Shown: piece by piece, positions 36,001 through 39,000 of the stretch | Layout of the letters: every line of letters begins with the position of its first letter | Position numbering within the stretch: the first letter of the stretch is position 1 | Source: Planctomycetota bacterium | GTDB taxonomy: Bacteria; Planctomycetota; JAJSAM01; JAJVHW01 | Direction: 5' to 3' | NCBI GenBank assembly: GCA_965248445.1 | Contig: CBDFJG010000003.1 | Span: forward strand, 32,001 to 96,000 | Length of the DNA: 64,000 bases | Program-made: the position numbers

Positions 36001-39000
36001 CGCCCGAGGGCGGCGTCGTCTTCAGCTGGAGAGAGAGCGACGCGAGCGACGCCCCGCCCGAAGAGCGCTGACCGGGGCACGAGGCTCACGGGAACATGCG
36101 GCGGCTGTCGCCGGTTACGGCAGACTGAGGACGACGACCGTGACGATGAAGACCACCCTGACGCTCCTGGCAGCCGCCGCAGGCGGTGCGGCCTTCGGCT
36201 GGTACCAGTCCGCCTGCGGGACCTGAGGGATCGCCGCTGCCCTGGAGGGGTGGCAGGCGTCGGCGCTCTACGCGACTGTGTTCGCCGGCGTTGCCGGGAT
36301 CGCCTTCCGCGGGCCTTCTGCCGGCTGAATCGGCTGCCGGCTGATTCGTCAGTCGCCCACGAGGACCTTGAAGCCAGGTTGGCCCTCGACCACCCGGATG
36401 TGTCGGCCGACAGGGATGTCGGCGAGTTCCTGGACGACTCCCGACGGCCAGTGAATCGTGAGGCGGGTCACCATCGTTGCCTGTCCGAGACCGAAGCGCA
36501 CGACGCTCGCCTGCGTGACGCTGAAGTGTAACCGTTCACCCCTTGACAGCGTGTGAGCCTCAGCGTGCGAGGGGCAGCGGGACCATGACGGGCGGGTCGG
36601 CGCCGGTGAGGTGCGCGGCGACCGAGTCGGCGAGGAAGTCGAAGACTTGGTCGCCACGGCGTCGCAGCGTGGCCGCGGCGGTCAACACGCGCTCGGCGAA
36701 GCGGAGTCCGCGAGCGGACTGGCTTCCGAAGGAGCCCTTGCGCCAGAGCACCGCTTTGCGGACCGCGCGCTCGGCGGCGTTGTTCGTCGGACTCACGTCC
36801 TGGGTCCGCGCATAGGTGAAGAGGGCGACCACGCGGGGGCGCAGATGGTTGGCCAGAGCCGAGTCGTCGTTCGCGATCAGTCGCTCGAGCCGTCCGCGCA
36901 GCACAGCGGCTTCGCCTTGCAGCCGGTCACGGTCGCCGTGCTCACCGAAGAGCCGGTAGCTGCGCATGACCGACTGCGCGATCATGACGCCCTTGTTGCC
37001 GAAGCGGCGATGTTCTCGCGGGCCTTCGGCCAGCGCACGGAAGGCGCGCTCGATGTGCGCCCAGCAGAGCTGGCGGCGGGCAAGTGGGTGTGACTCGTAG
37101 GCACCCATCCGGTCGCTGATCACCGTGCCACCGAAGCGCCGCCCGATCAGCCGCCCTTTCGCCTTGGCACTGCGGCGGCGATCGATCCCGAAGGCTGTGG
37201 CGTGCTCGCTCTCCGCCGCCCACAGCCAGCACACCCGGCCCCGTTCCTTCCACGACGTCTCGTCCACGTTGGCTCGCAGCGACGTGCGGACTGCCCCGAG
37301 GGCTTCGAGGTACGACGAGTGCAGAGCGTCACTGAGCCGACGCTCACAGTCGCTGATCTTGCCCAGCGACATCTTCACACCGAAGATCTCACCGAGCAGC
37401 CGCTGCGTCTCCCGCACGCTCACGCGGTACACGCCGCGCAGCGCGCCGGCAAGTGTGGTCAGCCGCGGACCGAAGGCCCCGGTCGGCACGCCATCGGGCA
37501 GGACCGCCGTCGTGACCGCACGACAGCGCCGGCACCGCGCCTTGTGCAGCCGGTGCTCCCGCACCGTGACGAGCACGCGCGGGAGCACCGTCACCTGGTG
37601 CCGGTACGGATCGCCGATGCCCTGCTCGAGATCGTCGTGTCCGCACGCGTCGCAGCGGTCGGGACGGTGCTCCTTGGTCTCATCGACGTTGGACGGATCC
37701 ACCAGCTCGCGCGCCGTGCCCTCATGGCCCGGCTGTCCGCCCTGCTTGCGACCGCTACGCGGCCTTCGGCCGCGACGGCGCTTGGACCACGCCGGGTCCG
37801 ACGACGGAGGCCTCGAGCTGTTGCGGGAGTCACGCTTCAGACGCGACTCGAGCTCGTCGATGCGGCGCAGATGCTTCGCTTCGCGACGCTCCAGCTCCTC
37901 GATCCAGGCCAGAAGGCCCTCGACCATCGCCCGCAGATCCTCGTCCTGCCGCTCGCCCACAACATCTTGATCGACCGATGGCCGAACGATCTGGATCCTG
38001 GCTCGCGACGAAGGGGTGAACGGTTACCCGTGCTCGGGGTTGCCACGGCAACGCCGTTCCAGGCGGACACGACGACGTCCCGCTTCGCCAGTGCGTCGAC
38101 CGCTCCCACGTTCACGGTGTTCGTGTCGGGATCGATCGAGGTGACGTAGCGCGGCACCCCGGTCGCGAGCCCCGACGGGCCGGCCGTCAGTCCCCGTCGC
38201 TGACCGATGGTGACCGTGCCGACGCCTCCGTGCTGCCCGATCACCGCTCCCGAGGCGTCATCCACGATGGGACCCGGGACCATCGACTCGGGTCTCCGGG
38301 CGCCCACGCGCCCACGACGGCGCGGTAGTCCCCGTCCGGCACGAAGCAGATCTCCATGCTCTCCGGCTTCTCGGCCACGGGCAGGCCGAACTGCTCCGCG
38401 TGGGCCCGTACTTCGGGCTTCGTCAGGTCCCCGAGAGGAAACAGGCTCCGCGCGATCTGGGCCTGGGACAGGGGAAACAGCACGTACGTCTGGTCCTTCG
38501 TCTCGTCCCGCGCCCGGGCGAGCGCGAACCGCTCTCCGACCCGCTCGCGGCGGGCGTAGTGCCCGGTGGCGACCGCGTCCGCGCCGAGTGCGTCGGCGAA
38601 CTCGAGGAGGCGGCCGAATTTGAGGTCCCGATTGCAGACGATGCACGGGTTCGGGGTCCGTCCGGCGGCGTACTCAGCTGCGAACCCATCGATCAGCCGG
38701 TCGAACTCAGCCTCGTGGTCGAGCGCGTAGAACGGGACGCCGAGAATCTTGGCCACGCGGGAGGCGTCGGCGGCGTCATCGATCCCGCAGCACCCCTGGC
38801 GAGCCCGCTTCGCGGCCGGGCCGGCAGCGATGCCGTTCCGCATGAACACACCCGTCACATCGTGCCCGTCGGCCCGCAGGAGGGCCGCCGCCACGGAGCT
38901 GTCCACCCCCCCGCTCATGGCCACCACGACGTGCATCCCGGGAGGGTACCGCCGAAGCCCGCGAGGCCGGTGTCAGGGCCGTCCGTCCGGCCGCTGTTTC

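What a model noticed while it worked through the whole genome (the two positions that open the first line are those of the whole stretch)
38027..38936. Wobble-uridine modification dismantled: no MnmE/MnmG in the order and the only mnmA broken by IS66
MnmE and MnmG are missing from the whole order, and in this genome the only mnmA is frameshifted and cut by an IS66, its 3' part lying 1 Mb away fused in frame to a histidine kinase (g02343). tRNA-Lys, -Glu and -Gln with U34 should thus lack both xm5 and s2 marks.
Evidence so far: PF12631 and PF13932 in 0 of 17 genomes, controls ring in 9-10 of 14, while 103 of 121 phylum genomes have MnmE. mnmA pieces and the shared 8-nt target at both junctions. 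Short-read contigs of four runs of one sample cover the frameshift and the IS junction on one 2.8-kb piece with no differences. 14 of 16 relatives keep the MnmA C-domain, 13 in long frames. No Elp3-like radical SAM among 20. AAA, GAA, CAA are 5.5, 17.8, 11.2% of their pairs.
(Added by a program. Inside this text positions count along the whole contig: contig position 32,001 is position 1 of the stretch shown here. "Call 12" and the like, gene names such as g00115 and contig names such as C1 are that model's own, and its searches are not shown. The text may have been shortened before it was handed on; [...] marks where a part breaks off. The agent that wrote the report below was given it as the finding of a first reader that could run no searches.)

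Follow-up and report, generated by a model that had tools for sequence, protein, structure and literature searches.

The report
Bacterium missing both wobble-uridine modification routes
An uncultured, GC-rich bacterium whose whole class already lacks one of the two tRNA wobble-uridine modification systems has also had the gene for the other one broken by jumping DNA; that double loss kills Salmonella but is tolerated in a laboratory mycobacterial mutant, and here it is seen only as broken and missing genes in a single sample.

Summary
The only mnmA in G000 lies in three pieces: a 231-aa catalytic domain ended by a frameshift (an exact 8-bp tandem duplication), a central domain cut by an IS66, and a C-domain 1.05 Mb away, fused in frame to a hybrid histidine kinase. 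Contigs of 3 of 4 runs (one sample) bridge that fusion without differences. MnmE, MnmG and Elp3/MnmL domains were found in 0 of 17 genomes of the class; G000 has no TtuA/Ncs6 or SelU. mnmA is otherwise kept: all 7 good relatives and 25 of 25 good MnmE-less genomes elsewhere in the phylum have a match. Most likely a recent IS66 burst (about 230 IS copies) hit a gene made dispensable by high GC and C34 tRNAs, leaving tRNA-Lys/Glu/Gln with bare U34. This is a natural counterpart of the published M. tuberculosis mnmA deletion. Codon usage and the tRNA-Gln anticodon arm match relatives with intact mnmA, so the codon figures show no adaptation, and other tRNA-modification genes are intact. The chemistry is unmeasured, and this is one genome from one sample. 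No earlier scan note on this was found.

The parts
38241..38936 (-). mnmA 5' ORF, 231 aa. It holds the whole N-terminal catalytic (HUP) domain with the PP-loop and a C-type CXXC + C motif, and ends in about 17 out-of-frame residues.
   Evidence: PF03054 E 4e-71, positions 1-201 of 202; NF001138 266 bits, under its 284 cut-off, positions 1-205 of 345; 66-72% identical to family relatives over residues 2-215; singleton cluster.
38300..38316 (.). Exact 8-bp tandem duplication that causes the frameshift; same length as the IS66 target duplication, probably a footprint of an earlier IS66 insertion and excision.
   Evidence: Sequence. Footprint reading inferred.
38028..38292 (-). mnmA central (PRC-barrel) domain and start of the C-domain, out of frame with the 5' ORF and cut by the IS.
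   Evidence: PF20259 E 2.6e-14; matches relatives' residues about 214-295.
38028..38035 (-). 8-nt IS66 target site; its second copy heads the mnmA 3' piece at G000:C3:1119025-1119032, outside the window, 1.05 Mb away.
36528..38027 (-). Single-ORF IS66, 1500 bp, one of 41 full copies; 466-aa transposase at 36560-37960. Its two flanks come from different genes.
   Evidence: PF03050, NF033517.
36349..36527 (-). 3' end of an ASPIC/UnbV gene; its 5' part (FG-GAP repeat) lies at another IS66 copy, G000:C3:877502.
   Evidence: PF07593; matching 8-mer; PF13517 on L204.
43170..44669 (-). Second copy of the same IS66, directly upstream of rpsL (gene named from its translation; label recalled); flanks also unmatched.

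Best explanation
Two-step loss. (1) The ancestor of this GC-rich class lost MnmE/MnmG long ago and kept the C34 isoacceptors tRNA-Lys(CUU), -Glu(CUC) and -Gln(CUG), so the U34 tRNAs are needed only for the rarer A-ending codons, about 15 per 1000 codons. Gene absence and tRNA set are shown; the causal link is inferred from the published Actinobacteria pattern. (2) In this lineage a recent IS expansion hit mnmA twice. One IS66 probably inserted and left again, leaving an 8-bp duplication (duplication shown, cause inferred). Another inserted 273 bp further on (shown). Recombination among IS66 copies and at least one further joining event then moved the 3' piece onto a broken hybrid kinase; the junction is shown, the route (possibly Ku/LigD end joining) is inferred. 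No full-length MnmA can be made, so tRNA-Lys(UUU), -Glu(UUC) and -Gln(UUG) most likely carry plain U34 and read AAA, GAA and CAA less efficiently and with more misreading of Asn, Asp and His codons. The cell tolerates this as the M. tuberculosis deletion mutant does (inferred; no RNA data). It is a tolerated, probably mildly harmful recent loss, not an adaptation.
For: Three pieces and no second copy by Pfam, tblastn or a custom profile of 10 relatives. The kinase junction is bridged with 0 differences in X1, X2 and X4, and no loose end at the head of the 3' piece appears among the 24 loose ends shown (31 not shown). MnmE/MnmG: 0 of 17 genomes; 7 MnmE and 5 MnmG proteins of the phylum, used as tblastn queries and profiles on G000, find only generic GTPase domains for MnmE and nothing for MnmG. 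One PP-loop PF01171 gene, and it is TilS; no SelU; no Elp3/MnmL domain. All six Lys/Glu/Gln isoacceptors are present. None of 40 IS66-flank fragments scanned (of 47 listed) hit a core translation or replication family, so selection is still working and mnmA behaved as dispensable. Seven of 8 contig ends lie in long repeats found elsewhere in the assembly, so little unique DNA should be missing there. The pieces are no more diverged than relatives are from one another and carry no extra stops, so the break is recent. Precedents: PMC6063277, PMC10531406.
Against: One genome, one sample, probably the source of the assembly; word depth only 4-10 per run; X3 has a hole and an unexplained loose end at the junction. 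Completeness is 92%, and the start of C3 is not in a repeat. mnmA is kept by 39 of 41 other MnmE-less genomes (25 of 25 good ones) and by all 7 good relatives, so it is normally under selection even without MnmE. The Salmonella double mutant is non-viable (PMC5400242). The catalytic domain is intact and could keep some activity. A review cites xm5U in Streptomyces without known enzymes (PMC13602947), though a later paper could not confirm it (PMC12772374).
Confidence: 0.68

Rival explanations
1. Assembly or population artefact: the organism, or part of its population, has an intact mnmA, and the IS flanks were scrambled by the assembler.
For: Only 2 of 41 copies of this IS66 have matching target duplications, and 23 of 41 have a flank whose partner sits at another copy. 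One sample, low depth; contigs drop rare variants. I did not lay the window side myself.
Against: The IS-free kinase junction is bridged in 3 of 4 runs with no difference, and it alone breaks mnmA. The IS copies are resolved into 36 haplotypes. A second IS66 of the same length with near-identical copies keeps 14 of 32 target duplications, which random joining would not give. 55 of 105 site pairs show four gametes, as recombination between copies would give. The assembly breaks at repeats of 7-22 kb, not at 1.5-kb IS.
Confidence: 0.1
2. A hidden substitute keeps U34 modified: a divergent second thiolase in unassembled DNA, a moonlighting ThiI, or an unknown C5-modifying enzyme of the class.
For: 92% completeness. 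An intact ThiI. Several radical SAM genes have no family over cut-off. Unknown enzymes have been suggested for Actinobacteria (PMC13602947; PMC10531406 leaves it open).
Against: No TtuA/Ncs6, Elp3/MnmL or SelU. ThiI scores over the s4U cut-off. xm5U was not confirmed in Streptomyces on repeat analysis (PMC12772374). The mycobacterial deletion mutant grows normally in culture, so a substitute may not be needed.
Confidence: 0.14
3. Split but working MnmA: the intact catalytic domain keeps residual activity, or works in trans with a restarted central domain and the kinase-borne C-domain, or ribosomal frameshifting or loss of the duplication restores part of the protein.
For: The frameshift falls at the border of the catalytic and central domains (E. 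coli residues 215/216; PMC5372745 figure legend). The catalytic cysteines are intact. An in-frame ATG opens the central piece. The C-domain is in an open frame.
Against: That Met is a native residue in at least one relative. The central piece runs on into IS sequence. The C-domain is cut about 15 positions into its profile and hangs on a membrane kinase. Losing the duplication would still leave the IS cut. That tRNA binding needs the central and C domains is recalled knowledge, not tested here.
Confidence: 0.08

Closest known systems
M. tuberculosis mnmA (Rv3024c) deletion mutant (PMC10531406, passages read)
   Same: GC-rich bacterium with no apparent homologs of the C5-modifying enzymes, with a C34 isoacceptor (stated for Glu) and no mnmA; viable.
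   Different: That is an engineered deletion with measured tRNA signals and a growth defect in macrophages. This is a natural, IS-caused break in an uncultured lineage of another phylum, with no measurement.
Loss of MnmE/MnmG in Actinobacteria (PMC6063277, passages read)
   Same: Clade-wide loss of both genes in a GC-rich lineage that keeps the non-target C34 tRNAs.
   Different: That paper says both are absent only in Actinobacteria. Here MnmE and MnmG are not found in 17 of 17 genomes of another class, and MnmE is also not found in families f25, f28 and f53 of the same phylum (MnmG not tested there).
Salmonella mnmA mnmE double mutant (PMC5400242, abstract and first part of Discussion read)
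   Same: Same predicted chemistry: unmodified U34 in tRNA-Lys, -Glu and -Gln.
   Different: Non-viable in Salmonella. Here the state appears tolerated, with C34 isoacceptors for all three amino acids and only 5-18% A-ending codons.
MnmA, C-type (CXXC + C; PMC8053098, passages read)
   Same: PP-loop, CXXC + C motif and all three domains are present as sequence.
   Different: Frameshifted, cut by an IS and dispersed; under the NCBIfam cut-offs as an ORF.
Reduced genomes that keep mnmA: Mollicutes (PMC4014445) and Hodgkinia/Sulcia (10.1101/365791), passages read
   Same: They mark mnmA as one of the most persistent tRNA-modification genes.
   Different: They keep mnmA (Hodgkinia and Sulcia also mnmE and mnmG); this 5.4-Mb genome does not.
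Single-ORF IS66 elements with 8-bp target duplications (ISBst12-like group; name recalled)
   Same: 1.5 kb, one transposase, inverted termini, 8-bp target duplication.
   Different: 39 of 41 copies have lost the matching target pair, and IS-free 8-bp duplications frameshift several genes. Searches (listings only) showed no paper on such footprints for IS66.

Membership tests
MnmA (tRNA 2-thiouridine(34) synthase) | N-terminal HUP domain with PP-loop and CXXC/DXXC + C | tested here: met
   PF03054 positions 1-201 of 202; motifs read in the translation; PDB MnmA hits E 1e-53 or better.
MnmA (tRNA 2-thiouridine(34) synthase) | Central and C-terminal domains in one polypeptide of about 360 aa | tested here: not met
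   Three separate frames at two loci; NF001138 and TIGR00420 under cut-off. It is an mnmA pseudogene, not a working member.
MnmA (tRNA 2-thiouridine(34) synthase) | U34 thiolation activity | not testable with these tools
   Needs an enzyme assay or tRNA analysis.
Lineage without MnmE/MnmG (Actinobacteria-like) | Both MnmE and MnmG absent | tested here: met
   0 of 17 for PF12631 and PF13932; PF01134 gives only weak N-terminal hits (G000's best is dihydrolipoyl dehydrogenase); tblastn and profiles on G000 negative. 8 of the 17 genomes are at least 90% complete and at most 5% contaminated.
Lineage without MnmE/MnmG (Actinobacteria-like) | C34 isoacceptors kept, high GC | tested here: met
   G000: Lys CUU, Glu CUC, Gln CUG, Arg CCU, Leu CAA present; GC 0.687. 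Full tRNA sets of relatives not examined.
Organism with unmodified U34 in tRNA-Lys/Glu/Gln | No known s2 or xm5 writer in the genome (MnmA, TtuA/Ncs6, MnmEG, Elp3) | tested here: met
   genome 92% complete.
Organism with unmodified U34 in tRNA-Lys/Glu/Gln | Plain U at position 34 shown chemically | not testable with these tools
   No RNA data could be examined.
IS66 | DDE_Tnp_IS66 transposase, terminal inverted repeats, 8-bp target duplication | tested here: met
   PF03050 and NF033517 over cut-off; inverted ends; 8-bp duplications at 2 intact copies and matching 8-mers between separated flanks.
Excision footprint repaired by end joining | Excess of frameshifting duplications of target length, with Ku and LigD present | tested here: inconclusive
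   6 of 46 classifiable period-8 duplications switch frame, against 36 of 2719 for periods 5, 7, 10 and 11 (p 5e-5). Pfam confirms a split domain at 3 of the 6, 1 is a gene boundary and 2 are unresolved. Control sites were not Pfam-checked. Ku and LigD genes are intact. The cause is not shown; slippage is possible.

The most novel reading that the evidence does not exclude
The class lost MnmE/MnmG because it has an unrelated, unknown enzyme that modifies U34, and that mark is what lets this genome drop the 2-thio group with no change in codon usage or in the tRNA-Gln anticodon arm. That would be a third route to wobble-uridine modification besides MnmEG and Elp3.
Probability: 0.1. Interest if true: 0.85.

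Novelty: new variant of a known kind. Interest (0 to 1): 0.5.

Why it matters
mnmA is described as kept even by Mollicutes and Hodgkinia, and a bare U34 in tRNA-Lys/Glu/Gln kills Salmonella. A natural 5.4-Mb bacterium with neither system would show that the s2 and xm5 marks are both dispensable when GC is high and C34 tRNAs carry most of the load, as so far seen only in a laboratory mutant. The further lineages without MnmE give independent contrasts for the link between GC content, tRNA set and modification enzymes, which was reported for Actinobacteria only. The limits are a single uncultured genome, a recent loss that may be a dead end, and no chemistry.

Tried and rejected
No RNA holder listed for the stretch. 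No close relative was found: the best of 80 metagenome loci kept, from 497 confirmed, was 66% identical, and the 231-aa protein is a singleton cluster. So it could not be tested whether sister strains have an intact gene. Codon adaptation was rejected: A-ending share in four-codon boxes is 11.3% in G000, and relatives' 13-47 kb samples show the same range. A compensating change in tRNA-Gln(UUG) was rejected: its anticodon arm with the U-U mismatch is the same in G007 and G008, which have intact mnmA; tRNA-Lys and tRNA-Glu were not compared. General collapse of tRNA modification was rejected. The missing 3' half of the kinase was not found next to any IS end of the 11 repeat sets tested. The X3 loose end matched no look-alike flank in G000 and may come from another organism. 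Breaks in relatives G012 (N gap) and G006 (contig end) are not real breaks. The GIDA profile PF01134 rings in 17 of 17 genomes but only weakly at its N-terminal part, so it is no evidence of MnmG. The swapped-flank counts were not used, because copies inside larger repeats inflate them. No complex prediction was run, since halves of a split gene tend to pass by likeness to solved structures. Paper searches showed no natural bacterium lacking both systems; the library omits most subscription papers and no supplements were read, so this is not proof of novelty. Scan look-ups by words and by near place gave nothing.

Full report
Setting. The window is G000:C3:32001-96000 of a 5.40-Mb, 4-contig genome, GC 0.687, 92.1% complete, 0.17% contaminated. 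Earlier scan notes call the phylum Planctomycetota (AI notes, not checked by me). Its order and class are the same 17 genomes in three families.

The gene. mnmA starts at window 38936 on the minus strand. The 231-aa ORF covers PF03054 positions 1-201 of 202 and stays under the NCBIfam MnmA cut-offs. It has the PP-loop and a CXXC + C motif, the C-type of PMC8053098 (passages). The frame changes at an exact period-8 duplication at window 38300-38316. The next frame encodes PF20259 and is cut at 38027 by a 1500-bp IS66. The C-domain lies at C3:1119023-1119220, ending a 760-codon open frame that carries CHASE, HisKA, HATPase and, by inspection, half a receiver domain. The 8-mer before the IS recurs at the head of that piece. 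Against 10 intact relatives the pieces cover residues about 2-215, 214-295 and 297-360. Against the six family relatives they are 66-72%, 45-63% and 61-71% identical, while those relatives are 62-69% identical to each other. A profile of the 10 relatives finds no other copy in six frames. The break is therefore recent and the gene is the only one assembled.

Is it real? Four runs hold the stretch, all from one sample and one study, kept as contigs, library not on record. Single contigs of X1, X2 and X4 cross the junction with 0 differences at word depths 8.4, 4 and 5.2. X3 has a hole there and one loose end that I could not place. Of 55 loose ends 24 were shown, none joining other DNA to the head of the mnmA 3' piece. 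This junction alone breaks the gene. The sample may be the source of the assembly, so this checks the assembly and is not independent occurrence. I could not repeat the window-side check. Seven of 8 contig ends lie in 7-22 kb repeats; the one examined holds phage terminase and tail genes.

The IS background. Repeats cover 572 kb, and ten repeat families have about 230 left ends (counting families 5 and 23 once). The IS66 in mnmA has 41 full copies; 2 keep a matching 8-bp target pair, and 23 have a flank whose partner is at another copy. The far flank of the mnmA copy is the 3' end of an ASPIC gene whose 5' part lies at C3:877502. The copies form 36 haplotypes, with 55 of 105 site pairs incompatible. 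A second IS66 with nearly identical copies keeps 14 of 32 target pairs. That fits real, progressive recombination better than assembly error. Of 47 coding fragments next to IS66 ends I scanned 40; hits are accessory families such as peroxidase, VWA, ECF sigma region, hydrolases and an aminotransferase, 15 have no hit, and none is a core translation or replication family. The 7 not scanned include mnmA itself and the rpsL flank, where the IS lies upstream of the gene.

Footprints. Period-8 duplications switch coding frame at 6 of 46 classifiable sites (of 160; the rest weak or masked, the mnmA site among them), against 36 of 2719 for periods 5, 7, 10 and 11 (p 5e-5). Pfam shows a domain split across the site at 3 of the 6, one is a gene boundary and two are unresolved; control sites were not checked this way. 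Ku, an end-joining ligase and a LigD polymerase gene lie together in open frames. I infer that IS66 excision and end joining leave both target copies. That would explain the frameshift and, from a hybrid copy, the IS-free kinase fusion. Slippage and microhomology recombination remain possible, and the kinase's 3' half was not found.

The missing partners. PF12631 and PF13932 are in 0 of 17 genomes, with controls in 10 and 9 of 14. In a draw of 301 phylum genomes 244 have MnmE; the 57 misses are 16 of this order and 41 others, among them f25 (0 of 6), f28 (0 of 10) and five f53 genomes. Seven MnmE and five MnmG proteins of the phylum find only generic GTPase domains and nothing, respectively, in G000. 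PF16199 (Elp3 and MnmL; assignment recalled) is in 0 of 17. G000's one PF01171 gene is TilS, SelU is not found, and ThiI, MiaB, RlmN and QueE are in long frames. PF00749 finds two genes, GluRS and a shorter one that I read as GluQRS, and no GlnRS.

How unusual. 14 of 16 relatives have the MnmA C-domain and 13 of 16 the N-domain, including all 7 good ones. Of the 41 other MnmE-less genomes 39 have an mnmA match, 25 of 25 among good ones. One of these, G296, has three frame switches within about 220 nt of mnmA, which may be a second case or local sequencing error. So mnmA is normally kept without MnmE, and G000 is an exception.

No sign of adaptation. AAA, GAA and CAA are 5.5, 18.1 and 11.6% of their pairs in G000 and 6.2, 15.9 and 9.4% in about 53,000 pooled codons of seven family relatives. 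Together they make 15 per 1000 codons. All six Lys, Glu and Gln isoacceptors are present. The tRNA-Gln(UUG) anticodon arm equals that of G007 and G008.

Comparison with what is known. PMC6063277 (passages) reports MnmE and MnmG absent only in Actinobacteria and links such losses to tRNA content and GC. PMC10531406 (passages) shows that an M. tuberculosis mnmA deletion grows like wild type in culture but is impaired in macrophages, notes no apparent homologs of the C5 enzymes, and leaves unknown enzymes open. PMC13602947 (passages) lists s2U as the only such mark reported there, and calls mnmA essential in B. subtilis and streptococci and conserved in reduced genomes. PMC12772374 (passages) could not confirm xm5U in Streptomyces. 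PMC5400242 (abstract and first part of the Discussion) finds the Salmonella double mutant non-viable. PMC4014445 and 10.1101/365791 (passages) show mnmA kept in Mollicutes and Hodgkinia. No supplements were read. Searches showed no natural case of the double loss, in a library that lacks most subscription papers. So the finding works like the mycobacterial deletion mutant, in a lineage that repeats the Actinobacteria loss; the gene itself is a pseudogene and not a working MnmA.

Verdict. Observation confirmed; interpretation partly supported. Best reading 0.68: a recent, tolerated natural loss that leaves U34 bare. Rivals: hidden substitute 0.14, artefact or mixed population 0.10, split but working enzyme 0.08. 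New variant of a known kind; interest 0.5.

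Noticed in passing
L169:1657-2727 (G296:C7): mnmA of another MnmE-less genome (family f28, 92% complete) has three frame switches within about 220 nt, net in frame, scrambling the stretch with the last catalytic Cys. Nearby 60 kb is not obviously fragmented. A second broken mnmA or local sequencing error.
   Followed up: partly
G000 genome-wide; example window 36528-38027 and 43170-44669: 39 of 41 copies of one IS66 have lost their matching target duplication, while a younger IS66 keeps 14 of 32; genes such as a haem peroxidase and an ASPIC protein are split between distant copies.
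   Followed up: yes
L171:1159-1179, L173:1153-1168, L176:1156-1172: IS-free period-8 duplications split a sigma-54 activator, a GT4 glycosyltransferase and a DJC28-domain gene; possible IS66 excision footprints.
   Followed up: partly
L133 and L135 (G000:C1:348436-352340): Ku, end-joining ligase and LigD polymerase genes lie together in open frames.
   Followed up: partly
L262 (G000:C3:1791500-1811467) and other contig ends: Several contig ends lie in near-identical copies of a 10-15 kb repeat; the copy examined has a terminase with a homing-endonuclease domain, a DNA methylase and a tail completion gene, so a prophage seems to be present in several almost identical copies.
   Followed up: partly
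L185 and L192 (G000:C2:555897-557057, C4:724846-725202): IS66 ends abut a Mg-chelatase-like gene and a helix-hairpin-helix gene that look like comM and dprA (names recalled), suggesting loss of natural transformation.
   Followed up: no
L004:1503: Run X3 has a contig that leaves the kinase sequence exactly at the fusion point; its continuation follows none of the look-alike flanks in G000. Another organism or an older allele.
   Followed up: partly
phylum sample, families f25, f28, f53 (also 2 genomes each of f84 and f94): Further lineages without an MnmE match that keep mnmA; MnmG was not tested in them.
   Followed up: partly
window 3465-4841 and 5107-6534: Two different DDE_Tnp_1_4 (IS1380-like; name recalled) elements side by side; one of these families has about 70 copies in the genome.
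   Followed up: no
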